NCBI GenBank assembly: GCA_027604505.1 | Contig: JADIIX010000031.1 | Span: 1-64,000, forward strand | DNA: 64,000 nucleotides | From: Gonapodya sp. JEL0774 | Taxonomy: Eukaryota | Direction of reading: 5' to 3' | Part shown: positions 705 through 27,728 of the stretch, one piece after another | Numbering within the stretch: the stretch's first letter is position 1 | Layout of the letters: the number at the start of each line of letters is the position of its first letter | Notes under the pieces: generated by a model | What the model saw: only the letters and a program-made list of their open reading frames with translations | What the model was told of the DNA's origin: nothing | Databases searched by the model: none | Position numbers and translations under genes: made by a program

Positions 705-1000
705 TGTAAAGGATATAAAGAGAATCCAGCACTCTGCCCCTGTACAGGTTTTGCCCCCATAGCCTAACAGGTTATGAGCCTGGACTGCTGACAGGAGAGG
801 TCACATGTTCGAACCCCAGTGGGGGGAAATTTTCCAATGTGGTGGCATGCAAAACTATGAGAGTTTGACCCTTAAAAATAGAGATTTGTCCTGGGTCGGG
901 CAACCCTGAAGCAGAGATGCTGTCTTCAGGGGGAGTGTAAAGGATATAAAGAGAATCCAGCACTCTGCCCCTGTACAGGTTTTGCCCCCATAGCCTAACA
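705..1000 (+). mobile_element. Miniature non-autonomous LTR retrotransposon (TRIM), copy 1, 296 bp
   Basis: Identical 65-bp direct repeats at 705-769 and 936-1000 (TGT...ACA). 5-bp TSD ATGTC at 700-704 and 1001-1005. Copia-type PBS GGTTATGAGCC at 770-780. PPT AGGGGGAG just before the 3' LTR. Confidence 0.95.
753..826 (+). other. tRNA-like sequence (Pol III A-box/B-box) spanning the TRIM 5' LTR, PBS and internal region
   Basis: 74 nt. GCCCCCA...TGGGGGG acceptor-like stem, TAGCCTAACAGG A-box-like, CCTG/CAGG anticodon-like arm, GTTCGAACC B-box. The T-stem does not pair. Confidence 0.65.
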
Positions 1001-4000
1001 ATGTCTGAAATATTTGCAACCCCAAATTGTAGCGAATGCTTCAAGGGTTCTCGTGTCCCATTTGCGCTTGGCAGGAGTCAAACGCTTACTCCCATAACCA
1101 ACCACGTATTCATGACCATTGCCATCACATTGACTCAGAATAGCACCCAGAGCTATCTTAGACGCATCCGTTTGCAAATAAAATGGTCAACTATAGTCAA
1201 CTCTTTGTAAAACTGGTTGAGAACACATGCGATCTTTGATCTTCATGAACGCATCATACGCTGGACCAGAAGTCAAGTCAACTATGCCACCTTCCACAGT
1301 TTGATCAGTCAATGGCGCTACCAGATGCGCAGAATTGCGTATGAAGTGCCTGTAGTACCCTGTTATGCCCAAAAATCGTTGGTGCTCTTTCAGCGTTTGT
1401 GGGATTGGAAAGCCCCTCACTGCGTCAATTTTCTTGGAATCCATTTTGATATTACCATCATTTGTGATGACATGACCAAGATCTGATGTCTTAGCTTGGC
1501 AAAAGGAGCATTTTGCAGCTTTGATCTTCAAGTTTGCCTCTCGCAAACGCCGGAACACTTCCTCAATGTGTTTCAGATGATCATCAAACGACTTTGAGAA
1601 TATCAAAATATCATCAAGATACACGAGAGCAAACTCCCAAGATATGCCACGTAACACTGCATCCATTAAACGTTGAAAGGTTGCAGGTGCATTTGTCAAC
1701 CCAAAAGGCATTCGTCAAAATTGCAATAAACCACAATGCGTACGAAACGCAGTCTTTGGACAATCTTCTTCAGCAATTTCTACATTCCAATAACCCCATG
1801 TTATATCAAGCGCAGAGAAGTAACCGGCACCTTGTGTTGCCTCAAGCATATCATCAATGCGCGGCAAAGGATAAACATCCTTTTTCGTGACGGCATTAAG
1901 TCTACGGTAGTCGACACAAAAGCGTAGCTTTCCGTCCTTCTTCGGCACCATCACAACTGGAGCTGACCAGTCACTGACTGAATGTTCCAAGATACCATCA
2001 AGCAACATTTTATCAGACGCTTCGTTGATCTTAGCCCGATCACCTGGACTAGAGCGATATAGTGGTGCTTTTATTGGTAGAGCATCACCTGTTGGGATAT
2101 GATGTTTAACGCTTGAAATATAACCTGGCTTATCACCAACACTGAAAGCATCTCGATTGCAGTGTAGCAATTCTTTCAAACGGCCGAGTTCTTTGTCATT
2201 AAGAACTGTTTTGGACAAATCAAGACCAGGGATACCTAGGTCAGGAGTATCAATGGTGGGAACCAAATTTGTTTTTGGCTCAAGTATCTTCCCATCACGT
2301 GAGAAACGCGGAGAAGGATCACATGGCTGCTGGTCGTCATTTGTTGATATGAAATGAAAGTCTTTTGTATTGATCAACTCAAAGTGCGCTATGCGTGCAC
2401 CTTGGAGACAAACAAGTCTTTCTTTGTCCAATTCGTCAGACTTATCCAAGCTTCGCCATTGGACTCAAAAGTTTGCACACCATGCGGAACCATAAGACCA
2501 TCGCGTGCCGCATATAACGGACTAGGCCGGACGAGAGCGTCTCTGCCCGCGATATCTTCAATTGAGAATGACGGTGCGCATGAAGGAATAACTTTCACTG
2601 CCACAGATGATTCCCTCGGCACAGTTATGTCTTCCATCAATGCAAGAACGGCATCGCTTGCATCAAGAATCACTTCATGTGATTCAACACTTAACTTTGC
2701 AGGATCTGAGTAACCCAATGTTTTAATAGAAGCGTTCTGTGTCAATGGGAACTGGAGCATTGCAGCTGGCCAATCGATCAAAGCGCCAGAGTTCTTGTGA
2801 TAGCGCGTACCAAGTATTACAACACTTTGTAATCCTGGAATAATATGAAGCCATGAATACAATTGTCGACCGTTCTCAACTTGCACAGGGACATGTATTC
2901 TTCCGACTGAGTACGACGTTGTACCAGTTCCTAACACGATGAAAAATTCACCGACCTCAGATCTACGAGGATCCTTGCGACTATTCAAAAAGTTCTGTGG
3001 CCAAAACGTTTTTGAAATGGCATCAAAGTTGCAACCTAAACCGAGCATTCCTTTTGCGGGTATATCACCAACCACAGTCTTTACATCAGCTGTGTGATGT
3101 TTTAAATTCTCGGCAGGTGGTTCAGTATTCAGCTGCTCAATATTCAAGAGATGACCATCAGGACACTCATTCAGAAGATTGCTTTGATGACTCCAAACAG
3201 CAGCAGCGTTTCAATGTGACGTTATTGCAGGCTCCAAATTCATTTGCAATTCAGCGATATGACATGGACTATTGTCAAGTACAATCGTAGTACCACGCAT
3301 CTCATCATTTGGAATTAATACAGAATTTGCGTCAGTTGCGGGACCAAATTGGTGGGCAAAGTCACAAATCTGCTTAATGAAAAGTTGCATGTTGCGTTAG
3401 AACACTTGCCATTTGCCGACAAGCCGTCAGACTTGAACTCCCAAGAGTAGTCACATACCACTCAGTCAGAGGAGTGACCATTCAAAGCATTCAATTCAGC
3501 TGCGTTATCATTGCAGGGCACTTCAGGGTTCCGCAAAACCTAGTTTCACACATACATTGTGTGGTAACTTTGCCCATGCCTGGAAGCGGTCTACTTCCGA
3601 TCATTGTTCCACTTATGTCAGTCAAACTAACGTTGGATGTGCTCTGAACATCTGGGAGTGGACTGTTCCCGCTGACGTGTACGACTCCATGCCTGGCAAT
3701 GGCAAAGAGAAGCGGCATACGTAAGCTCTTGAGTCAGCCAAACAGAAAAAGGAAAGGCAAGGATGGCATTTATTGTCAGCGCTGACAACGTGCACATGAG
3801 CCAATCAGCTAGCAAACTCCTAGCTCTTTGGCCTTAAAGCTAGTTTCATGCTAGCGCACTCTCGCACAGTTGATCACATCGCGCAAGCAAATACCACAAC
3901 AATAGACGCGCAGCTGACAATTTAAGTCGCTAGGTTTTCTGTCTTTGAGCTACCATTTCCCATAGAGCACGCTCAGGTGGTTGTGCTGTTCCAACCCAGC

Positions 4001-4275
4001 GTTGTACGTTTTGGTGGGAGCCTGAATCGTATGAGCTCTGCACTCCACCTTGAACACAGAACATAGCGTGAAATGTGGAACACTCTACATATACAAACTT
4101 TGATGTCATAGCAGTTGGCCAATGTGAAGTTCGTTTATCACAAACTCTGCAAACGTGGCATCTCAGCGGATCTACTCATCTGAATCACGCCTATTGATGG
4201 TTTCTCACACGCTCAGCGCGCCAAAGACAAGAGAAGTGTGGTCTCAAGCTTTCAAAACTGCAAAATTTCAATCTT

Positions 4276-4572
4276 TGTTAAGCTATGGTGGCAAACACCT
4301 GTACAGGGGCAGAGTGCTGGATTCTCTCTTTTATCCTTAACACTCCCCCTGAAGACAGCATCTCTGCTTCAGGGTTGCCCGACCCAGGACAAATCTCCAT
4401 TTTTAAGGTCAAACTCTCATAGTTTTGCATGCCACCACATTGGAAAATTTCCCCCCACTGGGGTTCGAACATGTGACCTCTCTGTCAGCAGTCCAGGCTC
4501 ATAACGTGTTAAGCTATGGTGGCAAAACCTGTACAGGGGCAGAGTGCTGGATTCTCTCTTTTATCCTTAACA
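4276..4572 (-). mobile_element. TRIM copy 2, 297 bp, inverted relative to copy 1
   Basis: LTRs at 4276-4342 and 4507-4572 differ by one indel. TSD ATCTT at 4271-4275 and 4573-4577. Internal region nearly identical to copy 1. Confidence 0.95.
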
Positions 4573-4842
4573 ATCTTAGAGTTGGGAACATTTGCTCAAT
4601 GAACATGTTCACAGCACTCAGAGTACCACATAACAAGAAGTTTGATTCAAAGCTCACTCGCGTATTCAAACATAAGCTATCACAAGCTTTCTCATTGTGC
4701 TTCTCATTGTCACAAATATTTCACCCCCCCTCCCCTTTGGTCTTCATTTGAGTCAGAGGGGTCCATGTGTTGTCTCCAGAATAACATCTATATGTGGATG
4801 TTTATTTTACAAATGTATCCAAGGTACCTTCTCGATCAATTT

Positions 4843-7800
4843 TTATGAAGTTATAACTAATCTAAAGTCGGGTACAAATGGTTCCAAAGACAACTTGGAA
4901 AACTTGAACAAATCCTTTTGAAATACATCCGCGAAGTTGACAGGATGTCGTGCAAATTGGAATCTCCTGCCCAGTGTCATATGTCGGACAAATCCATGAT
5001 CACCAGAATTCTTTGTAATAAAAATTAACGCGGCACATGCGAACAGCCCACCATCATATAGGTTTGATTGTTGAGGCCAATCCTGTTGGACTATAAACTT
5101 AACCTCTGCATCAATCATGTCCAGTCCAATTCTCTTCCTGATTCCTTCGTTCATGTGTGCAACTGCATCATGGTAGTGGTCAGAAGGGTGGCGAATGGAG
5201 TCAAAAAGTACCCAACACTTCAAAGGAGGATGATAGACTGCCGCAAACCAATGAAGATTTCCTTCGTTGTATGTCGTCATAATAAAGTTCGCGTTTCGTG
5301 CATCTTGAAGTAAATTAGATGTCACTGAGCCTGGTCTGGGGTTCACTTCGCCCAGGTTTGATTCAGGGTTAGTATAGTGCGAAGAGATATAGAAGAGGCT
5401 GGTTGATTCAGCAGGGCGTTCTGTGTCCTCGTGGGTAAGCCACCGACCAAGATTGTTTATTGGTGAGTCTGATAGCCAGATTCCCAGAAGGAGGCGCCTG
5501 AGTTCCTTGTCAAAGGATGTGACACCAGGATGATCAGTTATCCCTTCATCGAAGATCCATCCGGCCGCAATTAATTCGTGGCTTGCTCCATCTACCACAC
5601 CCCCTGTTGGCAGAAATTCGAACCACAGAGCAGGAGCCGCCACAGCAAAGGGAGTTTGATCATTGAGAACATCTGGCTGTACAATTTCGAATGTTCGCCG
5701 ACGGCGCTTTGGAGTTGGAGCAGCAATTGCATCGTCCATGTGGTCAGACAACCGCTTTGGAATAGTTTTTGCGAAAGAAGTAGATCCACGTTTGAGGAAA
5801 AGTTGAGCATCAACAAGCATGTTTTCGATGTCCTGATCTTTGCACCCCGTCAAGTCAGGAAGAGACTCCACAATTTCATCCACATCCACATCCAGTGTTG
5901 CAGCAGTCTCCCAAGTGCTTTGGGTGAATGGTAAGCCATCCCACAAAGTGAGATACTCCCAACGATCAAGTGATGGACCGCCTGTATTGCAGCAAGCACG
6001 TGTAAGTGTTGTTCATGTAACAAAGGTTGGGGGTTTGAACTCACATCGCCGTCGAGCCATCAGCGCCTTCACTTCAAGATCCTTCGTTGGGTGCGTGTTA
6101 CTTTTTTGAAGTATGAGCATTGCGGATACATTGCTGACAGAAACCGTGTTTGGTAGTTTTGCAAGTTGGTAGTGAGGGTAGAATCTTGATGTGGATGTTC
6201 CTGGGAGGTCCCGCGTTTTTGCTGGTCCAGGAGTGATCCACTCAAGCTTGTAGTTGTAGTCTTTAGTGTGTATAATCTTCGCAAGAGCTTGGTATGGGTC
6301 TTTGCCTTTGGCAGGTCCAGCTGAGCGCCTAACAAGAACAACATCCCCGACCTGGAAAGGTGGAGATAGCGATAAATTTGCCAATGACCTGGTTGCAAGG
6401 GGTTCGAAGATTTAGATCAACAGAGTGCGATTAATTTTCGCGTTCTTACCTTGCAAGATCTCGAGCGGCGACTTTTTGCATGTGCTTCTTAGCATTGAGC
6501 ATCATTTTTGAATGGGTGGCAGGGTCGTAGACTACATCGGGAGGTGGATCTGACAATATCCATTTTGTTATGTTAGGTTACATTCACTTTGGATGCTGAA
6601 AACACTAACCCTGTCCTGGAACAGCATAAAAGTTCCGATCTGTCTTTCCATAAAATAATTCATATGGCACGGCATTAGTTGTTCCATGTACCTCGTGATC
6701 AATTGTGTTGTTGACAGTTGGCAAGATGTCTCGAAGACGCTCAAGGCTCAAAGTAGATTCTTGAATGTTGAGCTCCTTCAACACTTTGCGGATACGGTTC
6801 TTGAGGAAGCGATTGCGATTCTCGATGGCACCTTGTGTCGAAGGCTTGTAGGGGCTTCCATGCCGGATCTTGATACCATGGAGCTGGTGGAGTTTCTCGA
6901 ACGCCTTCGAAACAAATTCGCCTCCGTTATCAGAGAGTGTTGAATCAGGCATACCGCCTTCCTTGCTCCACTCCATGATAGAGTCGACTACATTCTTCGA
7001 TTGCTTCATTGAGGGTTAGACCTTTCTCCACTTAAAATTTCTAATAATAGAATAAACGTACCTTTGTGAGGAAAGCGTTAGCGAATCCTTTTTTAGATAG
7101 GTGGTCGACTCCATGTAGAATCCAAAAGCGCCCGAATTTTGTGTAGTCTATCACCCACTTGAAGTGAGGTATGAAAATGAATTAAACCACAGGACTCATC
7201 TGCTTCTGGGTTGTCACTCACCAACTCATTAGGTCGGGAGGTGATGATGGGTACCAAAGGCGCCCTGGATGGTAGCGGTTGTTGCAGGACACATACCGCA
7301 CATGTCAGAATTGTCTTTTCGAGGATCCGGAACAGTCCGCGGGCATAATAGTTCATCACAAGTTTCCTCCACAAGCGCCACAAAGAAGAGTGACCACCAG
7401 CCACAGAAGACGTGTGTACATGCTGAATCGCACGGTTGATTTCGTCCGCAGAGCATACGACCTCACCTGCAATGCAGACTCTTATGGGGCTTGAAAGAAT
7501 CACTCACCATTCTTTTCCAATCCTTGCGATGTGATTTGTTCACATTCCCTTTGCAATGAACCGGTAGTGCTTTGGGGATACAGTTGTTCAGTAGATAGAG
7601 TTCAATCTCAGAATGTTTATTAAGGTAGTCGTCGATTGCATCTTCCGTATCGTCGTCCAACACGTGGTCGGCATCTACATTGCCAGCGCCAGATGTAGAA
7701 TGCGTGACATCCTCGGATGTGGGAAATACATCGCTGAGGTTCGAGATGACTGTTTCGAGTATGTTCTTAAACGAAGATTCTGTTGGTTCTCCACCAACAA

Positions 7801-8050
7801 TGTATTCTTCGCCTGCGACAAGTTCAAAGCGACCGTTCCTCGTCAAAATGGTTCGATTGGGTGCTGACTTTGGTAAGAGGTAGACGTCCAACGGATTTCC
7901 CTGAAGTCTAAACAGCTTCTGCAGCTCAGGGGCGGTGAAAGATGTTTTGTGGAAGAAGTGAGTCTTGTTCAGTTGAAATTTGTTCACAAGAGTGACGGGA
8001 TCTCCTATTTTGTTGTTGAGGTGATTGAACCCTGCTGCAAGATTCACCAA
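4843..8050 (-). CDS. Multi-exon transposase: HHCC zinc finger, DDE integrase, SH3-like C-terminal domain, chromodomain, Ulp1/C48-like peptidase (5' end not resolved; possible frameshift near 7480)
   Basis: HVH..GGH...CAVC; spliced core WVIDYT..VDHLSK..SDNGGEF..SPYKPSTQGAIENRN; FQVGDVVLVRR; spliced EVKALMARRR..WEYLTLWDGLPFTQSTWE; NLHWFAAV..FDS..QQSNLYDGGLF. GT-AG introns join these segments. Confidence 0.85.
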
Positions 8051-8263
8051 AGCGACCGAATGGTGAAAACAAAAATGGCATCCTAAATGGCACCCTACAC
8101 AAAAGGACTACGCTGAACTACTTTGACAATCGTCTGAAGAGAAAGGAACTCGATAACATAGCAAGGGACAGGGATTGCGAAGATAAGGTGAGCACTGATG
8201 AGGATATCAGGCAGAGGCTGTCAGGCCGGGACGACGGGAACAGGGAAACGCCTCATGCACAGT

Positions 8264-9171
8264 AGTTGTCCGCCGGACGCTCTCAGACTCTCTCAGTCAA
8301 GCATCAAGTCGTCTGTTGGATGATTTTCTATCGACGTTGCGGACCTGTATGTCAAGCATCAAGTCGTCCGCCGGACGATTTTCTCTCGCTGCTTCTGATT
8401 GCCTCTGTCAAGAATAAAGTCGTCTGCTGGACGATTTTCTCTCGTCACTACGGAACTCTATGTCAAGCGCTAAGTCATCCGCTGGACAATTTTCTACTGT
8501 TGGTGCGGAACTGTATGTCAAGGATTAAGTTGTCTGCCAGACGATTCTCTACAATCGCTGATAATACTCTCAGTCAAGCGCCAAGTTGTCTGCCGGACGA
8601 TTTTCTTGCGTGTTTTCTGATACTCTCAGGGAAGTGCCAAGTCGTCCACTGGACAACTCTCTTCCATCACTGTGGAACTCTCTGTGAAGCATCAAGTCGT
8701 CTGGCGGACGACTTTCTCCCCTCGTGGAAAAAGTTGCCCGCCGGACGACTTGACTACTCTCGACTCTTTTTTTCTTGTTTGAAGTCGTCCGGTGGACGAA
8801 ATTACTCCTGGCTCTGTGATTTTGTTGTTCTCTCGTCAGGTCGTCTGGCGGACGACTTTCTCCCCTCGTGGAAAAAGTTGTCTGCCGGACAACTTGACTA
8901 CTCTCGACTCTCTTTTTCTTGTTTGAAGTCGTACAGTGGACGAAATTACTCCTGGCTTGGTGATTTTGTGGTTCTCTTGTCAGGTCGTCCGGCAGACAAC
9001 TTGACTACTCTCGACTTTCCTTTTCTTGTTCGAAGTCGTCCAGCGGACGAAATTACTCATGGCTTGGTGATTTTGTGGTTCTTGCGTCAGGTCGTCCGGC
9101 GGACAACTTTCTCCCTCGTGACAAAAGTCGTCCGACAGACGACTTGACTACTCTCGACTTTCCTTTTCTTA
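8264..9171. repeat. Tandem array of ~18 palindromic AAGTCGTCCG(C/G)CGGACGA(C/T)TT motifs
   Basis: Motif recurs at ~8307, 8361, 8417, 8472, 8527, 8583, 8639 and 8694 (~55-bp period), then as a ~144-bp higher-order unit (37+51+56 bp). Confidence 0.92.
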
Positions 9172-9370
9172 GGGCCCGTACGGCACTGGTTTTTTTGGGC
9201 ACAAATAATCGATTATTGGGGAAAGTGCACTATTTTGCGTGTTCGGCACTGCACAATATGAATAATGGTTGAACGCAAATAATCGATTATTTGGGTGGGG
9301 CCAAAAAATCGTGTCCAGGGGCGATTTTTGAAACGATTTTTCACCGCACTATCCACAATCCACCTCGAAA

Positions 9371-10494
9371 ATGCCCCCAAAGGCAGCTGCTTCAAGCGCG
9401 CAGGGACCAAAAAACAATAAAGGAAAAGGAAAAGTGGGCGGAGAGGACGGGCAAGGGGATGCAGGCGACGATAGGGCGAAGTGGGGAGTTCAAGAGAGGG
9501 AGTTGAAGCTCCTGGAGACGCTGAATTACTGGGCGCCAAAACAATCCGCTGGCAGGTTCACCAAGTTGTGGCCGAACATTGTTGCCAACTTCAACAGGCG
9601 TGCCAGGGTAGAGTACGACAAGGACAAAATCAAACGGAAGCACGACGAGCTCAAGCGGATATACACAATATTCTGTAAGGCCAGAGAGCGTTCGGGTGCA
9701 GGAACTGTACCAGGGAAGCCCTGGATTATCACGATGGCACCGGAATCCTGGGAGGAGTTCATAGAGGTGATTGTTTCTGAACGTTCTTTGTCGGCGATTG
9801 GGTTTCGCGATTAAAACAGTATCTAGCACCACCCTACGGCCTCCATTTTCCGCGAGAATGGGTGGCCTCTCTTCATTGAGGCGGACAAGCTATGGGCCAA
9901 CACGAAGGCTGTTGGGGAGTTTGCGGCAAGTGCCGTGGACCTCCCACCAATCGAGGATGATACTGGCATAGGATCGCAAGAAGTTGATACAGGAGACGTG
10001 GAGTATGCACCGGATGGGGAGGTTGAAGGTACGTGTCTCGATGTTTTTTGCAAACTGTGTTCTACCACGCTGAAACTCAACGTACAGACACCGCACCTCA
10101 TCCTCATCCATCGCGCACGCCTACACCCAACTCAGTGATGCCGCGCCGGGATTCGGACGTGAGTGCTCCCCGGAGTGTGGCCCCAACAACCCGCAAGCGC
10201 AGGAGACAGGACACACCGGACCCTCAGGAGCCTGTGAGGATTGCTGGACTGGAACAGATCGCAGAGGCTCTTTCTCAGGGCTTTGGGCGAGCTCAGAGCG
10301 GGGGCTCTCAATCGAACATGGTGTTTGAAGCCCTCACAGCCGCTTTGGAAGATGGATTCTCGGACATGGAGAGAGCCAGGATGGGGAGCATATTTGCGTC
10401 AAACCCCGTGACTGCAATGGTCTTTATGGGGCTTCAGACTGTTGGTGCAAGGAGGATGTGGTACGACAAGGAAGTTGCAGCCATGCGAAAGTAG
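9371..10494 (+). CDS. Harbinger Myb/SANT-like DNA-binding protein (3 exons; introns ~9767-9826 and ~10029-10087)
   Basis: AKWGVQERELKLLETL...FTKLWPNIVANFN...DKIKRKHDELKRIY; position inside the Harbinger TIRs. Confidence 0.9.
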
Positions 10495-10574
10495 CATACT
10501 AAAATAGTGGGAATGTTATGTGATGTATCAAATAGGGTTACAATCAAACGTCTACATATATTCCAAAATGTCCT

Positions 10575-11934
10575 CTACGTGTCGATTACTGGTGGTGCAC
10601 GATATCCACGCTCCTGCCGAATCGCCACGTAATCGTCCCACATCTTCTGTGCAGTACGTTCCCTCCACACCAAAGCAGGATCCATACGCGGCAGCCGCCT
10701 TGCAGAAGGAGGAACAACATCTACTTCAGCCGGGTACGGGTTTTGGCGGACAAATTCATGAGCAATGTCATCACCCGCTCCAAATGTATGGTGGTGGATA
10801 AAATTGTGTATAACTATACACGCCACAACCACCTGCACCTGAACGCGGAAGTCCAGAAACTTTGTGCCGTGTGCCAGGGCTTGGGTTCGCATCTTAGCAA
10901 CCCCAATTGCCCTTTCGACGGCATTCCTCAGTGACGAGTGCCGCAAGTTATGGATTTCGTAAGGTGTTTCAGGTCTACCAGTGTAGTAAATCCAGGAAAA
11001 AGTGTTATTATTAATAAAGGAGTTGTTTCCAAACTTTTGACGTGCAGAACACCCACCTCTTCCCATGGTCGGCCCACTCCTTCAGGTGGTATCGCACTCC
11101 ATTCTTATAAGGAGTCCTGAAGTACATGTTGTGTTCGTATCCAGCATCAACAAGGTACCATCGCCCTTTGGGCACCCGAAATCCACCCCGGTACAGGGTG
11201 TCTCCCAGGACAGTCCCGTCATGAGCGGAACCTTCATATCCTGCATAGACATAAGTAAACCGTCCATCAAAGTCCACTGCCACCAACACATTTTGCGAGA
11301 GGAATCCCTTGCGATTCATGTACGCGACCTGGGCATCCCCAGCTGGCCGGAACGCTCGGATATGCGTGCCATCAATTGCACCCACGCAACCGTCAAAGTA
11401 CGGCCAAAAACGTCCATTTGCCGTAATCCGGGTGGATATAGGAGTATTTTCATTTGGTTGAATGATGTAATCACTTGCGAGAGCACGTAGAGCAGAGATT
11501 CCCGCCCGAATGTAACAGGTTACGGTTGAGAGCGAGTGTTGGAATCGCAAACGCGCAGCACGCATAGAGACACCATGACCGAGGTAGAACATGAGCATCG
11601 CAAGCTGCTCATCAATGCTCATCTTGCAGGTGTCCAGGAGCAGCCGACGTGTCCACGTTTCCGCTACCAACGACCTGAACACGGGAAGTGGCATCCGAAC
11701 ATTGTCCAAGGCCATCTCCTTGTGTCCGTTTAGAATTTCGTACGTGAGGCGCTCCCCCTGAAGAACAGAGTTGGTCATCGGGCGGGGAATCGCTCGAAAA
11801 ATGCGTCTTTGCGCCGTGACGATGGTGGCGACAGCGGCAATCGCACATCAAACCGCCGCCATCACGGCCAGACGTTCCTCGTCGTCACTTATGATCATGA
11901 CGTCACCATCGTACGCGGGGATTCCGAGATCCAT
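10575..11934 (-). pseudogene. Harbinger DDE transposase (intron 10975-11056; in-frame TGA at 11850-11848 after the ATG at 11934)
   Basis: CVGAIDGTHI, NRKGFLSQNVL, GYEGSAHD, YLVDAGY, NLRHSSLRNAVERAIGVAKMR. Could still be expressed from the ATG at 11778. Confidence 0.93.
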
Positions 11935-12070
11935 CGCGTGTACTGTGTTTCGATTGAAGTTTGGTGGTGTTCGGCCAAAAAGTCACCCGAAAAATCACTT
12001 TTCCCCTATAATCAATTGGGACCCCCCCATAATTGATTATTACAGAAAACCACTGCTGTACGGGCCCTTA

Positions 12071-12202
12071 TTTGAAGTCGTCCGGCGGACGAAATTACAC
12101 CTCGCTCAATCTCTCTCTTGCACAATCGTGAAGTTGTCCGCCGGACGACTTGACTACTCTTGTCTTTCGTTATCATGCATCAATTCGTCCGGCAGACGAA
12201 GT
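12071..12202. repeat. Continuation of the palindrome array (3 copies) after the Harbinger insertion
   Basis: AAGTCGTCCGGCGGACGAAAT at 12075, AAGTTGTCCGCCGGACGACTT at 12131, AATTCGTCCGGCAGACGAAGT at 12182. Removing the Harbinger restores a complete repeat unit. Confidence 0.92.
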
Positions 12203-12340
12203 CACATCCTCAAGGGATGTACGGAACATGCAATGGCATGTTTGCCGGAGCGTTCAGGAGGAAGGCTGTGGCATTGAATGAGTTACGTGTGTCTTGTTCT
12301 GTTCCAAAATCTAACATGTCTACACCCTGCAGAAACGCCA

Positions 12341-15300
12341 ATGCCACCTAAACGCAAACCTGCACAAGACGGACCTATGCGCCAGAAGCGTCGAGGAGCA
12401 GAAGACGTTACAGACACCGGTGAAACCGCCGACATGGAAGTAGTTGAATCCAATCGTGAGTGATTGTTACATAAAAACAGAATATATTCTAATGTTTTTG
12501 TTTGTAGCCGAGTCGCTTTCTATGCTCATTGAGACGTGGTCCGAGCCTGCTCACCGAGGTATCCAAATCCCAACACGGTTGATTGACACATCGCAGTTCA
12601 AGAACATCCGAGTGGTGTCGAAGAAGCACCCTGTTTACAAAGAGTTGGTGTGAGTATTAGTGTTCGCAATTATATGGAACGAACGATTAACATGCAACCG
12701 TGGATCAGGCGCCGCATGAGGACCAATGGTCCCGAGAAGAATCGTCCTCTTCTGGCAAAATGGAAAAAGAACTATGGGCGTACTGCATTCGCAAATCTTG
12801 GCGAGCTATTCCGGAAAGCAAAGACTGAACTAACGGATCTCGTTGATGGTTTCCATCGGTATGTACTTGTCACATTTTGCGATTAGTCTCGATGTCAATG
12901 TTAGTTTTGCACATGCAGCCAGGAAGGAGCAGTCGAGATAAACGAAGAGGATGGTGACACTTCAAAGTGCCACAACCAATGGATTATAGCCCTCCGGGTA
13001 TGTTTTCTGTTCAACTCACTTACGCGACAAACCTTACGTTCACATCCCTACCTTAGTGGGACACTCCGGCTGACGTGCTTCGCAAGCTTGCCTTCCTCTC
13101 AAACAACTTGGACGGCCACTCCATTGCTATGGATGTATTTGACCAGGTGAAGTATGTGTCGGACGAGATCGATGCATATATTGCGAGGAATCCTGGGACC
13201 AAACGGGACAGCGTTCAGCCTGTCACAATCGCGAAGCTCCTCCCAAACACAGGAGCTGTAGGAGAGAAATGGACAGAAGTCACCACACTTCGAAAACTCA
13301 TGGTGATCGTGAACTTTTTTGATTCAGTACGTTATGCAATCGATGATTTGTTCCGCTCACGTGCTGATTATAGATCATCATCCGATTAGGTCAAAAACAG
13401 GATTTACGACCATTGCCATACTGGTCTACTCAGTTTCATTAACATGCACTTCAACTTTGCCACAAGGGCGCTGAAGACTGAGGAAGATCAGGTACGTGAA
13501 TAATGCAATTGTTTATGAGAGCTCACACCAGGAAATAAGTTGTTTGCTACCAGCACAAATACCTAGACTACCTCCTCAGCCAACCTTCCCGTGTGACGGA
13601 AGCCCAAGCAAGAGCGTGGTTGGAAAACTTTGCGCGCAGGAAAGCCCTTCGTGAGACGTTGGAGAACAGCAAGTTGGTCCTTGCGGAACGTCTTCCGCAG
13701 ATGCAATTCGACCTGCTTTTCAGGGAGATTGAGAACAGTGCGCACCTTTCATTAAATTTTCCTACATAAACCTAACGTACACTTTTCACTTCATAGGGAT
13801 GTATGACGACAATCCTGATGAACTCAGAGCCGCCATAGAATCAGCAAAAAATCCATCGCCATCGAAGGAACCTCCTGCGCAGGAGATCACTGACCTCGAC
13901 AAAGATGTCTCCCCTCCGGCCCGCCCTGATTTTGGTGTCAAAACCGAGACAACAACGGTTTGCGATGAGATGGCGCTTGGAAGTGCTCCAGAAATTGTAC
14001 ATGACACGGACAATGGAGAGGGCAACGAGGGCGTACAGGTGGTGAAATCGGATTATGATGACAATGACGCCGGTGTGGATATGGACATGGATGGGCCCAC
14101 CAAATCCCGCAAGAAAAACACCTCCTCCGTATCGAAGTCAAAACTATCCGGAGATAAGGTTGACAAAGACGAAGACGAAAGCTCGAGGCGAGTCATTTAT
14201 CATATGCTGCCTTCTCACCGTTGATTTCTTAACACCAATTACGTTTCAAGGGCACCACTCCGTATGCCTTTTGAATTGGCCGAGCCCGCACCGACCGTCA
14301 TTCTTCGCCCCCCAATACGTTCAGCTGGTGACAACAGCAAACCTCTACACGCCCACATCAATAGTGCGTCCATGGTTGTGGTTGATCTGGATCGAGTGGG
14401 GTCTGAGGTGAAGCCAACCTTGGACCTTGCAGGAAAACTTGCAGTTGGCACAGGATGGATTGTTTTGGTGAGTCTCATGTTTACAAACAGCTTGTACGAT
14501 CATGAAATATGGTTGGTACCCTTCCAGCACACTTCCAAGTGGATCGCATTATCAGAAGCACAGAAAGTTTTCCTCTCCGAGTTGGAGTACGAGAACCGCA
14601 AAATCTTCTTTGCAGATGACATTGCGACATGGATGGATCACAAAGAGAAGAAGCTCCATTACTTCCTGGTTGCGCAATGCTTTCTGCAAAGCACAACTAG
14701 CTTTAAAGTGGAAGCACCCTTTGTGGGTCAGCTGCCTCCTTCCAAAGGAATGGATGATGCTTTGAGATTGGCGGTGGGTTTTGTGTTTCGTCATTCAGCA
14801 TAGAACTTACTCTCATCTTCATTTTATAGGGCGACCCTGACCTGCAAGTGCCCATAACTACCGCAGCCTACATCATCCACCAGCTTACCAAAAAGGAAAA
14901 GCTCATCATTGACCTCGGTTGTGGAGCGCCAGGATTTGGAGGTGCTGTACTTTTGACCAATCGCAAGTACATTGGGATCAAATCTGTCACTGATGTAGCT
15001 GGATCTGCTTTGAAGTGCCTTACATTGCTTCATCAAACGTTTGTTGAAGAGAAGGGGGCTCTTGCTGCTAAGTAAGTTATAACGGTTTCATTCTATGCAC
15101 TGTTTGTACACCTTGCCATTTAACTTGCAATTTATAGGTACATTGAATACACTACGTTGAAGTCCGTAGACGTGTGGACAGGTAAAGAGAACGTTCTCCA
15201 TCCACGCCTCCAGTTGAGACCACCCACACCTCGTCAGTCGGCAACTCCACTCAAGACTGGTGTCATCGAGACACGTTCTTTGAAGCGTTCACGAGACAAG

Positions 15301-15441
15301 GATGACACTGAGGAGAATGTAGATGAGGGAGCTTCAGACCGCAAGGGGACGAGAGTAGCACGTAGGTCTTCCCGCCTAACGCCTAGAACTCGATGCTTCA
15401 TTGAGAAATACTGCGTCGATGTACAGGCAAAGGATGACTGA
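12341..15441 (+). CDS. Multi-exon cargo gene: N-terminal ParB/Srx-like domain, acidic linker, degenerate beta-class N4C/N6A DNA methyltransferase-like domain
   Basis: Spliced NIRVV..YKELVRRMRTNG..PLLA..LVDGFHRQEGAVEI..LRKLAFLSN (ParB-like). C-terminal NSASMVVVDLDR...DPDLQVPITTAAYIIHQLTKKEKLIIDLGCGAPGFGGAVLLTNRKYIGIK resembles the N6_N4_Mtase C-terminus. About 10 short introns keep the frame open; one needs a GC donor near 14189. Confidence 0.72.
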
Positions 15442-15776
15442 AGCAAATGTAGATGTAGGATTATCAATACATATTCAAACACCATCTTTCACAAACCATA
15501 GAGGGCATAAGATAAGAGGGAGAAGTTCATGTTGGATCTATAGTGTACGTACAGATATGTAAGGAAACATGAAATAACAGGGCTGCCCAGATAAGAAATA
15601 CGTAAGGGGCAAACAAAAATAATTCAAGACAGAATGATTTCGGGGCAGGGTTAAATCAGGATATGGGGGAGGGGGGGTGAAATTTTTGTGACACTCATAT
15701 CACTCCACACAAAGTGTCCGATAGAAAGTTTGTCCGAAAAGAAAAGTGTTTGCTGCACACCGAACAATTTGATCAC

Positions 15777-17573
15777 TCACGCAGCAGCATTGTTGCTTGA
15801 ACCGTGACCTCTTGTGGCTTTCTTCACAAGATACTTCAGCTGACTTTTAGAAGGAGGGCTGGAGCACGTCTCCGCCAAGTGGTTCTTCCCACTACAATTG
15901 AAACATTTGATGAAAAACTCCCCAGGATTCTCAGCATTGTAATTCCTTCTGTTACAACCACCACCAGATCCACCTTGATACCCTCCATGGTATCCACCAT
16001 GATATCTGCCATGGCAATAGAAACCACTTTAAGAGTGATAGCCTCCACAACTGCGCATTGGTCCGCCACCAGGGTGATTGTCACCTTGGTTTCCATTATT
16101 CTGGTTGTTACTGTGGCCACCATTGCCATTCTGCATGTTGTTGAGTGCAGGTGGTTGCAGCATCACCGGAGTCTGCACTGGTGGAGTGAGCACTACTCCA
16201 TCAACAACAGTCACACTCGCAGGTAACAAGAGGCGGGGTGTATCATTCACACGAGCTCTTGCCAACAAAGCATTGCAACACGGCAGCGCATTCCCTTGAT
16301 TGCACACACCAGCAAGCTGAGTTGCGATTATGTTTCCAATAACATGAAACAACACTTCTTGTTGTGCCATTCGTGCAGCCGCTTGTCTCGAGTCTTTGAT
16401 TCACGTCAAGCATACGCCTCAACACAAACAAAGTTGTTACACAGTGTAGTGATAATATCATTGATGGTTGTACACGCTGCAGAGCCATTAGCGTTGATGA
16501 ACTAGTGCTATTTCATATCACAAAACAAGCTGAGAGCATTGTCAGTCATGCTCTTGTTGACAATCAAGTTCACTGCAAAAGCGAACAAGTCTCAGAGGTT
16601 CTGAATCGGCCAATTATGCAAACCAATAATGGAGTACGGTCCCAGCGGTGCAGGCGATGACCTTCGAAAGCGGTGTGAATATGTGCTGGCAATAGCGGTA
16701 AAACTGCTGTTTTGACACGTGCAGTGTTGATCTTGCCACTCTGCAATGCACCAAGACATGCGACAACAATGACGCACATCCCATAAAAGTAGTTGGATCC
16801 TGTCTCATATGGTTTTGCATTAGAATCTTTGCTGAAGCATTCAAGACTGTCATTAGTCCCACTTTCAAGGCCATTGTCAAGACCATCATTCTCAGGCCAA
16901 CCAACATCTCGCAGTATGCCAATAGGAGGTAACGCATAGCTGCTCTCCAACCACACAGTTGCTACTGGCAACATTTGCAACCTTGGAAAAGCAGCAGTTG
17001 GGGGATCAGCAGCTTGTGCCGCTCGCATCTCAACTGCGGGGGGTGGTGCTACCGTCACTGTAGCACCATTATTCACTTGTCTTACTGCCTGGTTGCTTCT
17101 GTTCTGCTCATCACAACTAGCGTTTGTAGGCAATACATTGGTGCAGCGGCGGAAGGCAATACCACCGTAACCGAACCCAAGTTGATGCTGCAAATCAGCA
17201 ATGGCAATCTGCATTGCCCTTATGGTATCTTTTTGGCTACAATTCACGCGTTCTAATCCGGTAATACGTGCTACACCAACAGGTGTGGATGAGCCAGTAG
17301 CACTCATAGTCCTTTGACAGACAAACTGACCGTTCACATTTTCATTGTCCTCTAACTCCATCTCATCTTGAGAGGCGTTTGTGTTTCCTTGCCTAGCACT
17401 GTCGTTAGCTTCAGCTGATTCACAGGCTTGAGAAGCATTCTCTGACCACGAGTGCATTTGCTCACTTCCTCAAAGTCCTTCTCACTCGGACCATACGGGA
17501 CATCACTGTTTCTTCCATTGTTTTCCAATTCAATATCAACAACAGGCGTGTTCTTGTTGGCCTGCTCAGACAT
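15777..17573 (-). pseudogene. Decayed gag-like ORF with CCHC zinc knuckle; probably the 5' part of the Gypsy element at 96-3147
   Basis: N/G-rich region followed by KCFNCSGKNHLAETC (~15870-15910). Same strand as the pol; abuts the Ginger TSD. Confidence 0.7.
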
Positions 17574-17904: not shown

Positions 17905-19960
17905 TGGCTAAACCCTCACACATAGACCCGTTCCATCGCAGTACATGTCCTTCACCAACAAGCCTGTTGATGTGCTCCACAACTCCGTTCTGTGCAGAAG
18001 TGTCTGTAACAGTTTTAAACATTTGCACTCCCTCTTTCTCCAGGCGACCAGCAAATTCTGCGGCCATAAACTTGCTGCCCATGTCCACCCACAGCCTTCA
18101 ACTTCTCCCCAGTCTGCCGTTCAACCCACACATTCCAAGCGTCAAATGCCTTTGCGGCATTCCTTTTTCTGGTGAGTCCATAAGCCCATACTTTGCTTGT
18201 ATAGTCATCCACAATGGTTAACCAGTATCGTGCATTCTCCACAGAAAGAGCATTTGCCTCCCCCAGATCCATATGCATGAGACCAAGAACTTTCGTGGAA
18301 CGAGGACCATCAGAAGTTTTCCAATTCAAGCGCCGGAAAGTTTGTTTCCCTTCCATATAGAGTTGACACGCGACTGCAATGTCGGTTGGTGTCTTGATAT
18401 TCAGGCCACTAACATGACCTTCGCTGATAGTTTTCCAAACCCGCTCAGGCAACTGATGCCCAAACTGTTCATGCTGCAAGAGAGCAGGATGAACTGTTGC
18501 TGAAGTATCCGAGATACTGATGAGTAGACTGTCTGGAGGTTCACTGAGGTGAGTTGGATATCCTTGAACCGCGTACAAATGGGCCCCTGGGATCTGGTTG
18601 ATGAAACAGACATGATTACTGTCCTTTCTGATTTCCAGGCTGTGATCTCTTCCAAAAACTTCGCAACCGCTGTCGGCAAAAGAAGAGTGTGTGATGACCT
18701 TGCTGTGCGACAATGGTGCAAACAGTGAGTTCGTGAATTTCAGAATGCCACTTGGCTTTCCTGTCCGGTCCATGGTAGTAATGTTCATTGTTCCAACATT
18801 CCTCCATCTGGAATTGTCACCCCTGCCTGCTCAATGAGCTTCCTGTCTTCAAAATCATCTGCGACTCAGGACATACTGCAAGTCGCACCGGAGTCCCATA
18901 TCAACTCTGTCTGAGAGCAGGTCTGGTGAGTGGCGTGAGAGTCCATTGCTGAGATGGTAAATACATGAGTGTCCATTTGATTCACAAACCCTCTGTTCTT
19001 CTCCTTGCCTTTCCCTGCACCGCTCTGATCATCCTTTCTGCTGCTGCCGCTGCATCCCCCATTCTTCTTCGAATGATCACACCACAATTGCGGTTCTGCT
19101 GTGGTTTTTTCTTCCTACAATCATGCGCCATGTGACCGTAAGTACCGCACTTGTTGCAGTTGCTGTGGAAGTGTTTCGAAGTTGAGCTCTACGTGCTTGA
19201 GAATGTCTTTCCAACCTTATCCAGTTGACTATCATCCCTCTAAATTTGCTGTTCCGCCTGGACTCACATCATTTGGAACAATTCCCTGGTGAGTGTCCCC
19301 TGTGTAGGTAGCAGTCCCGCCATTTCTAACTTTGAGCGGTACTTTTTAGGTAGACTGCTTTGCCCACATCATACTTCCGCCCCTCCATCTCGCAAAACTG
19401 CCTAGCCATGCCACCCTTGTCCGTGAGGTGGGTGAGGATTGACTCGCCTGGTGGTATATCCCGTTTGTTGAGTTTTACCGCGTAGTTCTATCAAGTGTGT
19501 AACCAGGTTTGGTTGGAATGTCTGGAGAATGGCTGTGTACATGAGTGCAGAAGTGTACTCTCTGGGATCCGAAGGTAAGTGTTTGAGTATCAGAGTCAGC
19601 AGACTCTTGTCTATTGCCACAATAATGAGGACCTGCGCAACCCTTTCCTTAGCCCACCACTCCTCCAGTTGCCGTAGCTGCCATGCAGACACCCGCAGCA
19701 ACACCTCCCTTGCCCTCATCTGCACCAACACTGGTACCGGGGGCCACAGGTGAGCTGACTGGACTAGCCAACAGCTTTGGCACTTCACCCAGTATGTACT
19801 CCAAGATTCCTAGCTGGTTTGCAATGGTGCTGAAGGCCGTTTTCCAGCTATCTAGGTTGCTGCCAAGTATTAACCTTATGCCGACAAACTTGATGTTAGA
19901 ATTGCTGACTGACATTAAAGGTGAGTCTTCCGCAGTTGACTTAGAGTTCAGTTGCACTGT
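17905..19960 (-). pseudogene. Decayed Ty1/Copia gag-protease-integrase, truncated in the integrase
   Basis: GSNLDSWKTAF..LGILEYILGEVPK; CCHC knuckle ~19120-19150; IWDSGATCSMS; LLQHEQFGH; MHMDLG..YWLTIVDDYT; QNGVVEHINR. Confidence 0.92.
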
Positions 19961-21333: not shown

Positions 21334-21510
21334 ATCCAACGCTAATGACGGCGTCTCTGCCGTGCCAACTCAGAATGCATTTACGTCTCCCCCAAAAGGC
21401 ATGGCTACTACAAAAGCTAACCTAACTCCGTAAATGTATGTACCGTGCACGAAACATATTGTGTGTGGAACTGAACACTCTCCACTTGGCAAATCAACAC
21501 GTCTCCCCGC
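21334..21510. repeat. DIRS left ITR
   Basis: ~21352-21510 is the reverse complement of ~28115-28272. The first ~28 nt match the ICR. Confidence 0.93.
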
Positions 21511-22228
21511 CCTGGGCCACTGGACGCTCATCCTGCACTCATGATGTGAGTGCTCTGACACTAATTCCACCTGTGGGCATGTGTCATGGGCGATTCCAGC
21601 CAGGGTACAGACAAGGCATGCCTCTCTACTACCACACCATATACGTCCCTGATTTGACCTGAGTCTTTGCCGAGGGCGCTCCACAGCGCCAGAAACCCAT
21701 CCTCTCTCATCTACAGTTGGAAGATGTTGACAGAACCAGGCGAAGTTCTCCCAAATCAAGGTGAGATGGAGGTCCCCTCCAACCGCCAATTGGGTGAGCA
21801 GGCAGGGACAAAAATCCGGTCAGGTCACAGGGAAGTTCAAGCCTGGCGTTGATGCCCCACAAGACAGACTGTGATGGCCGCTTCGGCGCCAGGTGCCTCT
21901 CTCTGCTCTGCTCTTAGGTCAGACAGATGAGGGTATCCCCTCTTTGCACTCCGTGAGGAGTAGCAATTGACATTTGATACAGACCGGCTGGCAGTTGCTC
22001 GATGACAATGCCAGAATGAGACTGCCTATAAGGCCCACTCTATCTACTTTGGTTGTACTCTACTACGTTGACCTCTGGTCTGGTCTGCCCCATCGATGGC
22101 CCAGCAAAGACTTCGAATGTTGATGACATTACAGGGGAAATTGAACGCTTGCGGCGCAAAGCGCAGCTTGAGAACACTTGAGCAGACCTTGGGGAAGCTC
22201 AGAACTGCGGTCGTTGCGCGCCCAGTCC

Positions 22229-23904
22229 ATGTCCGATCCAGACATGCCGTACAATGAAAGTCTCCAGTCATACCATCAGAAACGTGGTCTAGCTTGTTCA
22301 ACCTCTGCTCAGCTGGGCTCTCAGACATCTGTCTTGAGCACTGATGGCTTAGATGCTCCAAGCCCTAGCACTGGCATCTGTGGACACAAAAACAGCACCG
22401 CTGGTACCTACAACCCAGCGTCAAGACCCACTCCGGAGATACATCACTCAGAGCTTCTACACAGCAAACCCTTCGCAATCGACAACTTGTCTGACGGGGA
22501 CTACTGGACCCCATCTGAAAACGCCTCTTTGAACTCTGAAGATGAGGAGGGGGATCTGAAACGAAAGCGGGGTTCCGCTTCCTCCGACGAGGATGAGCGA
22601 CCCACACGCAAAAAGAAGGCTGAACTGGCATTTGACCGGTTGGTGTTCAGACACGACGGACGATGGGTGGTGGCTATGTGTCCACTCACCCTTCCTCTCA
22701 TCACATGGTCTGCTATCTCCCTTCACAGATTCAAAACTGAAGCACCTCTTGCTGAGGTCAACACATCCGTCCAAACACACCTAATCGACAGAGACAAGGA
22801 AGACAAGGCGGGTCTGAAGCACCTACAGTCAGCATACACCGTGACCCACCAGCACACTCTCTCACGGAAATGCTTCCAGAAGTATGCGTTTGACAGAACC
22901 CTCGGACTCAGGGTGGACTGTTTGCTGACATGCAGAAGGGCAGCTCCGCCTCCTCATCTCAGGGTCGCTCCACTGATTACATTACACAGCTGAAGCGTCA
23001 GCATGAAGACGTCGAGAAGACTCACTCAATGACACTCACCAGTCTGAAGGCACATCTCCTTGTTACCTCACACGTTCAAGACACATATGAGGCTATAGAA
23101 GATGACCTCACACAGCAAGTCCAAGACGCAATAAGCAGTGTCCATGCCATGGACGTGTTTGAGAAGCCGGACCCGATGGAGACTGAAACAGCGGAGGTGA
23201 CAGAGGGTGACACAGGTTTGGACACCCCAGTTCACCCACTCCTGACCATGGTTCACCATCTGGCATATGCCCTACACACATACAAAACAGCCACTCAGGA
23301 ACATCATGAAAAGTTACTTGAAGAAGCTGACATCTCGGTCCTTGCCACACAGCACATGCTGGTGATGAACTCAGACATCACTGTGCAACGAGTGCGGACA
23401 GTCCTCGCACTCGGCACACCTTGCAGAGACCTCAAAGCCCACACCCCTGGGAGGGGCTCCAACCCCATTTGGGCAGGGCGTCGGCCCAAGCTGGCCGATG
23501 GCACCTACCATTACGATGCCCAGCAGGACCTTGTCACAGCTAAGGACGTCCCATCTCTTGTGTTGGCAGGACATGAACTATAGGACGTGCTCACCAGGAT
23601 GCGCAAGTGACGGTCCAAACCCTTTTTCGACAGCGCCACTGGAACTCATGGGCGTGGGAAAAGTACACGGAGCAGGTACAGCAGTTATAACCGCTTCAAA
23701 TCCTATTGCGGCAGAAGCAACAGATCATGTTATGGCAGTTATGGTGGATATGGGTTCCGCAGCAGTTACAAGAAGTACTCACAGGATGACTACAAGGGCA
23801 GGGACTCGCGTGACCGTCGTGACTCCTCTCCCCCAAGATCAGCAGGCAACTCCTCCTCCAGGAGTTTTCGCGGACGCGGCTCCAGTCGGAGCCGCGGGAA
23901 GTAA
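22229..23904 (+). pseudogene. DIRS ORF1 (gag-like), with a frameshift and nonsense codons
   Basis: Overlapping ORFs 22178-22993 and 22930-23583 continue through TAG/TGA to an R/S/G-rich tail (..RSFRGRGSSRSRGK) ending in TAA at 23902-23904. Confidence 0.7.
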
Positions 23905-26412: not shown

Positions 26413-26575
26413 CTGTTGTGGTATTGACACCTTGCACATGACCACAGCCTACACATGTATATAAGGCACAACTAGCACCACATAATAAGATCACACTTCA
26501 AATCATCTCACACTCCAGGCCTATCACTAGGCTACCATCCCGTCAATCGTCATAGAGGGCTGAGACCGATACGTA

Positions 26576-27606: not shown

Positions 27607-27631
27607 GCAGTTCATTTGAGCTTTGGGAGAT

Positions 27632-27728
27632 GGCAGAGACGCCGTCGTTAGCGTTGGATCCTGTTAGTTGCTGAGCTTGCGACAGATGCTAGCAGGAGCC
27701 TAGCGGTAGACAGTCTCTGCCGTGCCAA
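27632..27728. repeat. DIRS internal complementary region (ICR)
   Basis: 27632-27659 is complementary to the left terminus 21334-21361; 27661-27728 is complementary to the right terminus ~28257-28324. Confidence 0.95.

What the first reader, a model, noticed from the sequence alone, without database searches (positions are those of the whole stretch)
4708..15693. Ginger-like transposon with integrase-chromo-Ulp1, a palindrome array and a ParB-methyltransferase cargo
Seen: one TIR/TSD-bounded unit (~8.1 kb without the Harbinger) carries two divergent intron-rich genes separated by ~21 palindromes. Known: Ginger elements use Gypsy-related integrases with TGT...ACA ends and can carry Ulp1 domains. 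ParB-MTase fusions are typical of phages and bacterial mobile elements, and ParB proteins load at palindromic parS sites. Inference: this could be a self-contained chromatin-manipulating transposon that reads histone marks (chromodomain), counters SUMO-dependent silencing (Ulp1) and binds or marks its own array (ParB-MTase). I do not know of a description of this combination.
Basis: partly seen in the sequence, partly recalled or inferred. Interest (0 to 1): 0.9.

Follow-up and report, generated by a model that had tools for sequence, protein, structure and literature searches.

The report
Fungal integrase transposon with ParB-like cargo
An 8-kb jumping gene in a water fungus pairs a retrovirus-type integrase gene with a second, bacterial-style gene, on either side of 21 copies of one palindrome that the second gene's protein likely binds; its methylase and SUMO-protease parts lack key catalytic residues, and a similar cargo is already reported in algal transposons.

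Summary
The anatomy is real. It has 28-bp TIRs (TGTCA...TGACA), a 5-bp TSD (CTCAT), two divergent intron-rich genes and 21 palindromes, with a younger Harbinger inserted into one array spacer. The left gene is a Ginger2/Tdd-like transposase: H2C2 finger, intact D-D(35)-E, weak chromodomain, Ulp1 domain. The right gene is identical to an annotated Gonapodya sp. protein and has three paralogs there. The Ulp1 catalytic Cys is Gly in this copy. The methylase-like domain keeps its SAM-binding half but has no DPPY-type motif in 3 of 3 copies that cover it. The chromodomain has one of three cage aromatics. The ParB call rests on a motif and a language-model lead; profile and fold tests were inconclusive. 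I could not test co-occurrence of the two genes and the array in other copies, because no genome or reads were held. ParB(-methylase) cargo and inverted-repeat arrays are already described in algal Sola and Plavaka transposons. What is new is the host superfamily (Ginger2-like), the fungal lineage and the domain combination. Most likely the cargo is a non-catalytic self-binding regulator of a CpG-rich shared promoter. Verdict: new variant of a known kind.

The parts
4703..4707 (.). left target-site duplication CTCAT
4708..4735 (+). left terminal inverted repeat, 28 nt, begins TGTCA
4843..8081 (-). Ginger2/Tdd-like transposase gene model, 8 exons (8081-8048, 8004-7504, 7466-7222, 7157-7062, 7003-6610, 6549-6450, 6388-6045, 5981-4843), 950 aa; start and first two introns uncertain
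7282..7443 (-). H2C2 zinc finger
   Evidence: Pfam PF17921 E 9e-6
6610..7157 (-). rve catalytic core, D(52)D(35)E intact, split by one intron
5890..6081 (-). chromodomain-like segment, intron-split; Leu at first and third cage positions, Trp at second (cage positions recalled)
   Evidence: PF00385 E 0.014; weak PDB chromodomain hits; sequence
5014..5304 (-). Ulp1/C48 protease domain; His and Asp kept, nucleophile position (codon 5050-5052) is Gly
   Evidence: PF02902 E 1.5e-7; alignment to SENP1
8263..9145 (.). palindrome array, 18 units, consensus AAGTCGTCCGnCGGACGACTT, spacing 36-56 bp
9172..12067 (.). nested PIF/Harbinger element with TTA duplication, Myb/SANT gene (+) and DDE_Tnp_4 gene (-); a later insertion, not part of the family
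12075..12202 (.). palindrome array, last 3 units
12341..15441 (+). cargo gene, 12 exons, 11 introns (52-66 nt, one GC-AG), 813 aa = P0003; ParB-like N-terminal part, acidic linker, beta-class methylase-like C-terminal part
12560..13400 (+). putative ParB/Srx-like region with VDGFHR motif (identity inconclusive; approximate bounds)
14340..15071 (+). methylase-like domain: SAM-binding half supported, catalytic motif IV absent (approximate bounds)
15666..15693 (-). right terminal inverted repeat
15694..15698 (.). right target-site duplication CTCAT

Best explanation
This is an 8.1-kb TIR- and TSD-bounded element with an intact D-D(35)-E integrase gene, likely a Ginger2/Tdd-type cut-and-paste transposon, whose second gene likely encodes a ParB-like protein predicted to bind the 21 palindromes between the two genes and to act without methylase activity. 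Shown: the ends, the 5-bp duplication, the catalytic triad, the two divergent genes, the array lying 182 and 139 bp from the two start codons once the Harbinger is removed, and the missing methylase motif. Inferred: the array is the shared control region of both genes. The cargo would load there as a dimer (one palindrome per dimer), occupy CpG-rich DNA that the host would otherwise methylate, and so set or protect expression of its own family, as VANC proteins do for VANDAL elements. The methylase fold would serve as a DNA-binding, base-flipping or SAM-sensing module rather than a writer. The chromodomain and Ulp1 domain would tether the transposase to chromatin or SUMO. This copy looks old and drifting: it is interrupted by a Harbinger and carries private substitutions.
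For: Ends and TSD. Triad and domains. By eye the core is closest to Ginger2 rows of the published alignment, for example the HG.P..P.TQG..E..N stretch and the DH.SK strand. No RT or RNase H inside the TIRs. The cargo is a multicopy family in the same organism: P0001, P0002, P0004 at 93, 87 and 76-86% to P0003, as expected of a mobile gene. The palindrome core is strongly held: 33 of 36 departures from consensus are CpG transitions, 20 of 21 in the 12 units outside the recent duplications. This fits methylation-driven decay of an otherwise fixed site. SAM-binding half matches beta-class methylases (hhalign 95%, E 3.5e-8), with no motif IV in 3 of 3 copies. ParB lead: Atlas 0.90-0.93 to phage ParB/Srx clusters. 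Of 115 phage proteins selected on IVDGFHR, 103 score with a Spo0J profile. Published parallels.
Against: No other copy's DNA was available, so co-occurrence of integrase, array and cargo is untested. No second integrase or Ulp1 copy was found. ParB homology failed to reach significance: score 13.8 against Spo0J versus 8.8-19.3 in 30 shuffles. Against phage ParB only the 13-15 motif columns aligned, and 1 of 12 shuffles scored higher for one set. The Atlas hits share only 101-131 of 256 features. P0002 has N for D in the motif. Both structure models were poor (pLDDT 34.7 and 47.8). Only 2 of 21 units have a perfect core. Part of the array arose by tandem duplication, so units are not independent. 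5mC in this organism was not shown. TIRs (28 bp) are shorter than published Ginger2 TIRs (45-297 bp). No phylogeny was built.
Confidence: 0.5

Rival explanations
1. Active chromatin writer: the cargo methylates its own array (4mC or 6mA), the Ulp1 domain removes SUMO and the chromodomain reads methyl-lysine, so the element manipulates chromatin enzymatically.
For: All three domain families are recognisable. Ulp1 His, Asp and Gln are kept. This copy's cargo has 26 private changes in 606 compared positions, so the Cys-to-Gly change could be private decay. P0001 and P0005 keep the acidic SAM-ribose residue.
Against: No motif IV in 3 of 3 cargo copies covering it, so that loss is shared, not private. 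Ulp1 nucleophile is Gly. Chromodomain cage is incomplete.
Confidence: 0.12
2. Clamp for transposition: the ParB-like protein loads on the central array, possibly with CTP, slides or bridges DNA and helps bring the short TIRs together or protects the excised intermediate; transcription control is secondary.
For: TIRs are short (28 bp) with no subterminal repeats. ParB proteins load at palindromes and slide (established knowledge). 15 of the 19 uninterrupted spacings are 51-56 bp, near five helical turns.
Against: The array is central and abuts both start codons. No palindromes near the ends. ParB identity and CTP motifs are not established.
Confidence: 0.15
3. Passenger and satellite: the cargo is a captured, inert gene (or rides a separate non-autonomous element), and the array is a tandemly amplified promoter repeat bound by a host factor or by nothing.
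For: The array shows plain 55-, 107- and 144-bp tandem duplications. No binding data. ParB tests were inconclusive. The cargo paralogs' surroundings are unseen.
Against: Spacers diverge while the palindrome core changes almost only by CpG transitions. The cargo frame is intact across 11 introns and is multicopy. The same gene-plus-inverted-repeat pairing is reported in Plavaka elements.
Confidence: 0.2

Closest known systems
Ginger2/Tdd DNA transposons (Bao, Kapitonov, Jurka 2010, PMC2836005; parts 1-2 of 5 read)
   Same: Gypsy-like integrase with H2C2 and DDE, no GPY/F motif, TGTNR termini, 5-bp TSD as in TDD-4/5; core motifs closest by eye to Ginger2 rows such as Ginger2-1_NV
   Different: TIR 28 bp versus 45-297 bp; C-terminal chromodomain and Ulp1; second gene and palindrome array; in that paper the only fungal member is a Malassezia vestige without TIRs
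Ginger1 DNA transposons (same paper)
   Same: C-terminal Ulp1 domain, introns, TGT ends
   Different: Ginger1 has a 4-bp CCGG/CCGT TSD and a GPY/F motif; neither is present here
Sola1-1_Ec32 of Ectocarpus (PMC12477816; passages read, supplements and figures not seen)
   Same: [quoted passage not shown]
   Different: Sola transposase, 21.5 kb, brown alga; no palindrome array or catalytic state mentioned in the passage read
PAG3 of Bostrychia Plavaka elements (bioRxiv 10.1101/2025.02.11.637652; passages read, supplements closed)
   Same: ParB-like accessory protein beside tandem inverted-repeat arrays; cassette moves between superfamilies (Plavaka, Mutator, Zisupton)
   Different: PAG3 is fused to a 2OG oxygenase, the methylase is on PAG2; EnSpm/CACTA host; red algae
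VANDAL/VANC of Arabidopsis (PMC5735166; abstract and outline seen)
   Same: functional analogue: TE-encoded protein binding tandemly repeated motifs in the element's own non-coding DNA
   Different: unrelated protein, Mutator host; anti-silencing shown there, untested here
Beta-class N6/N4 DNA methyltransferases (PF01555) of phages and bacteria
   Same: C-terminal SAM-binding motifs in the permuted order
   Different: catalytic motif IV absent

Membership tests
Ginger2/Tdd | Gypsy-type rve core with D-D(35)-E and H2C2 finger, no RT or RNase H | tested here: met
Ginger2/Tdd | TGTNR termini and 4-5 bp TSD | tested here: met
   TGTCA; CTCAT; criteria
Ginger2/Tdd | no GPY/F motif | tested here: met
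   the barrel after the core reads KDPYQALAKII, with no GPY/F (by eye)
Ginger2/Tdd | no YPYY motif | tested here: inconclusive
   a Y..P segment precedes the finger, next to the uncertain second intron
Ginger2/Tdd | TIR length in the published range 45-297 bp (descriptive) | tested here: not met
   28 bp; filed as Ginger2-like, not as a member
Ginger2/Tdd | placement in the Ginger2 clade of an integrase tree | not testable with these tools
   no Ginger reference proteins among stored sequences; by-eye comparison with the published alignment only
Ginger1 | 4-bp CCGG/CCGT TSD and GPY/F motif | tested here: not met
Ginger1 | C-terminal OTU or Ulp1 domain | tested here: met
   PF02902 E 1.5e-7
IS3EU/GingerRoot | 6-bp TSD, mostly TA..TA ends, no HHCC finger | tested here: not met
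Polinton/Maverick | 6-bp TSD, AG..CT-type ends, protein-primed polymerase, no HHCC | tested here: not met
   no polymerase among the ORFs scanned
Active beta-class amino-MTase | SAM-binding motif I region at the C-terminus | tested here: met
   hhalign 95% and 87%; phrog_18293 E 2e-6 for P0001
Active beta-class amino-MTase | catalytic motif IV [DNS]PP[YFW] | tested here: not met
   absent in P0001, P0002, P0003; DLDR in register, E 0.049 against one profile and unaligned against another
ParB/Srx | ParB_N fold with GxxR motif followed by helical HTH domain | tested here: inconclusive
   motif and Atlas lead; profile tests not significant; low-confidence models
ParB/parS system | specific binding to the palindrome, CTP-dependent loading | not testable with these tools
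   needs bench work
Active Ulp1/SENP protease | His-Asp-Cys triad | tested here: not met
   Gly at the nucleophile position in this copy; family state unknown
Methyl-lysine-reading chromodomain | three-residue aromatic cage (recalled) | tested here: not met
   only the central Trp is present

The most novel reading that the evidence does not exclude
A portable eukaryotic ParB/parS-like module, a bacterial-type clamp with a pseudo-methylase reader plus its own CpG-rich site array, has been captured by a Ginger2-type integrase transposon in an early-diverging fungus. There it competes with host CpG methylation for the element's bidirectional promoter, while a chromo-Ulp1 tail on the transposase engages chromatin and SUMO. 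It would be a fungal, integrase-based counterpart of VANDAL/VANC anti-silencing and evidence that the module jumps across superfamilies and kingdoms.
Probability: 0.3. Interest if true: 0.78.

Novelty: new variant of a known kind. Interest (0 to 1): 0.5.

Why it matters
[quoted passage not shown] This locus extends the design to an integrase-type (Ginger2-like) element and to a zoosporic fungus. It is compact, with a clean 21-bp candidate site, so the binding hypothesis can be tested directly. It also suggests the methylase part of such cargo can be non-catalytic, which changes the expected mechanism from writing a mark to occupying or reading DNA. A structurally complete fungal Ginger2-like element with TIRs and TSD is itself poorly documented.

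Tried and rejected
No whole genome held. No sequencing run was listed, which is no evidence on expression. Homolog searches with the chromo-Ulp1 exon (665-2000 aa candidates) and the integrase core (236-2000 aa) found nothing; 0 of 8 exact single-exon look-ups were in the collection. The cargo protein found no relative in metagenome contigs; in prokaryote genomes it gave 1 locus, a chance match to the acidic linker. The integrase core gave three 17-residue matches in viral contigs, not pursued; the Ulp1 exon gave none. The two-palindrome pattern gave 3 viral and 9 metagenome stretches (8 distinct loci). Of the 11 loci, 8 were inspected directly; the other 3 have the coordinates and contig length of an inspected coding repeat. 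None showed an array like this one or encoded a relative. The best phage tblastn match to the N-terminal part spans two unrelated genes and was rejected. phrog_9096 (E 0.26) retrieves what look like metallophosphoesterases and was rejected. A Pfam TNT hit at E 0.036, below cut-off, was treated as chance. AlphaFold models were too poor to use; Foldseek found nothing at E 0.001 and VIA-align only generic helical bundles, Z up to 8, so ParB is neither shown nor excluded. Rejoining the flanks gave no continuous reading frame and no empty-site copy in the window. A solo LTR-retrotransposon integrase was rejected: seven introns, TIRs, no RT. Harbinger origin of the array was rejected: spacing is restored on its removal. 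Literature searches found no Ginger element with ParB or methylase cargo, and no Ginger2 with a chromodomain; subscription journals and Repbase were not searchable.
Full report
Observation. The unit 4708-15693 is bounded by 28-nt inverted repeats with one mismatch, beginning TGTCA, and flanked by CTCAT on both sides. The 5-bp duplication has a chance of about 0.001, and no other copy of the TIR lies in the window. A Harbinger (9172-12067, TTA duplication, Myb/SANT and DDE_Tnp_4 genes) is nested inside; without it the element is 8,087 bp. Between the two genes lie 21 units of a 21-nt palindrome, consensus AAGTCGTCCGnCGGACGACTT, spaced 36-56 bp. Six weaker hits elsewhere were dropped. A two-unit pattern occurs 10 times against 0 in 100 shuffles. 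Removing the Harbinger restores a 51-bp spacing, so the array is older than that insertion. The array starts 182 bp from the modelled left start codon and ends 139 bp from the right one.

Host. The right-hand gene, spliced at 11 introns, translates to a protein identical to P0003, which its source names as a hypothetical protein of Gonapodya sp. JEL0774. I infer that the window comes from this zoosporic fungus. The element sits in a nest of retroelement remains, with Gypsy-type RT to the left and a gag-like zinc knuckle to the right. Rejoining the flanks gave no open frame. A survey of fungal DNA transposons assigns Ginger by the rve domain alone and lists only Malassezia in Repbase; it notes a Harbinger expansion in Gonapodya prolifera (PMC5751038, passages).

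Left gene. A model of 8 exons gives 950 aa without a stop. Five introns are 58-64 nt with good signals. The first two (43 and 37 nt) are short, and the better donor at the second gives a 41-nt intron out of phase, so a frameshift there cannot be excluded. Domains: H2C2 (E 9e-6), rve (4e-8), chromo (0.014, below cut-off, scanned on half the domain), Peptidase_C48 (1.5e-7). The triad is D(52)D(35)E. Compared by eye with the published alignment in the supplement of PMC10045372 (2 of 18 parts read plus passages), the core resembles Ginger2 rows more than Ginger1, Polinton or IS3EU/GingerRoot rows. Among prokaryotic profiles IS481 scores best (E 7e-13). With TGTNR ends, a 5-bp TSD, an H2C2 finger and no GPY/F motif, it fits Ginger2/Tdd as defined in PMC2836005, except for the short TIR and the Ginger1-like Ulp1 tail. 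No tree could be built, so I call it Ginger2-like. Aligned to SENP1, the Ulp1 domain has Gly at the nucleophile position (that this PDB entry carries Ser there as an engineered change is recalled), with His and Asp kept. The chromodomain has only the central cage Trp (cage positions recalled). No other copy of this gene was found, so it is unknown whether these states are family-wide.

Cargo gene. Three further proteins named from the same organism are paralogs: P0001 (93%), P0002 (87%) and the partial P0004. A search of 1.84 billion representatives gave 5 hits: two of these paralogs and three short fragments at 40-52% identity from other assemblies. The C-terminal part matches the SAM-binding half of beta-class amino-methylases: hhalign 95%, E 3.5e-8 against 77 phage sequences, 87% against 16 bacterial ones, PHROG methyltransferase E 2e-6 for P0001. 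No [DNS]PP[YFW] motif exists in P0001, P0002 or P0003. A weak alignment puts DLDR at that position (E 0.049; unaligned against the second profile). The loss is shared by all three copies, so the domain is probably not a methylase any more. The N-terminal part carries VDGFHR and scores 0.90-0.93 to phage clusters including ParB/Srx ones in the ESM Atlas, with fungal DUF3723 at 0.89, but shares only 101-131 of 256 features. Of 115 phage proteins picked on IVDGFHR, 103 are ParB-like by a Spo0J profile, yet the cargo aligned to them only over the motif. Against 30 Spo0J proteins the score was within shuffles, though the register found was the post-ParB helix and HTH. Folds failed. ParB identity is plausible, not shown.

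State of this copy and of the array. Where three copies can be compared, the window's cargo has 26 private substitutions in 606 positions against 8 for P0001 and 58 for the more distant P0002; 8 of the 26 can be CpG transitions, while CpG bases are 10% of the coding sequence. In the palindrome core 33 of 36 departures from consensus are CpG transitions, and 20 of 21 in the 12 units outside the recent duplications. The array is CpG-rich (observed/expected 1.15 versus 0.60-0.64 in flanking repeats). This fits a fixed site eroded by 5mC deamination, or a site tolerant of those changes. Host 5mC was not shown: the one paper listed mentions a CDCA7-like protein in G. prolifera (PMC10538959, one passage).

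Mechanism. Most likely the integrase cuts and pastes the element through its short TIRs (established for this class). The cargo protein binds the palindromes in the shared promoter and regulates or shields its own family without catalysis (inferred, 0.5). Rivals are an inert passenger with a satellite-like array (0.2), a clamp aiding transposition (0.15) and the fully enzymatic version (0.12).

Comparison with what is known. PMC12477816 (passages) describes a ParB-like plus N4/N6 methylase gene opposite the transposase in Ectocarpus Sola1-1 and proposes self-binding and modification. The Bostrychia preprint (passages) reports ParB-like PAG3 beside tandem inverted-repeat arrays and movement of the cassette between superfamilies. 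PMC4738411 (passages) notes ParB-HTH-fused Dam methylases in chlorophytes and chytrids, a different methylase group. GingerRoot lacks chromodomains (PMC6839031, part 2 and passages). VANC is the functional model (PMC5735166, abstract and outline). A 2026 preprint on transposon regulators has no ParB mention. Ten paper searches found no Ginger element with this cargo; unseen supplements of the algal papers and Repbase entries could hold one. Unchecked notes from this scan describe ParB-plus-palindrome pairs in several other eukaryotic transposons, one with a chromo-integrase, so the design recurs and this locus is one more host for it.

Verdict. A real, well-bounded element. It is a new variant of a known kind: new host superfamily, new lineage, probably non-catalytic cargo. 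Family-level co-occurrence and binding remain untested. Interest 0.5.

Noticed in passing
window 705-1018 and 4259-4572: Inverted pair of 317 bp at 94% identity enclosing Gypsy-type protease and RT remains (1187-3210); possibly long TIRs of another element or a MITE pair.
   Followed up: no
window 21353-28333: DIRS-like retroelement remains: inverted repeats 21353-21510 / 28115-28272, RT, Dam-like methylase (PF05869 E 7e-4) and a recombinase-like ORF by eye.
   Followed up: no
window 15777-17469: Gag-like zinc knuckle (CX2CX4HX4C) and upstream ORFs on the minus strand; the Ginger-like element may have landed in a decayed LTR element.
   Followed up: partly
window 18015-18830: Copia-type integrase fragment by eye (rve E 4e-4).
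   Followed up: no
window 43604-54451: Tandem family of at least four ankyrin, coiled-coil and SH3-like genes on both strands.
   Followed up: no
window 9172-12067: The nested Harbinger appears complete, with Myb and transposase genes in opposite orientation, and split the array 18 + 3.
   Followed up: partly
P0005, P0006, P0007: Short unnamed fragments from ENA and Logan assemblies at 40-52% identity to the cargo; probably single exons of related genes in other eukaryotes.
   Followed up: no
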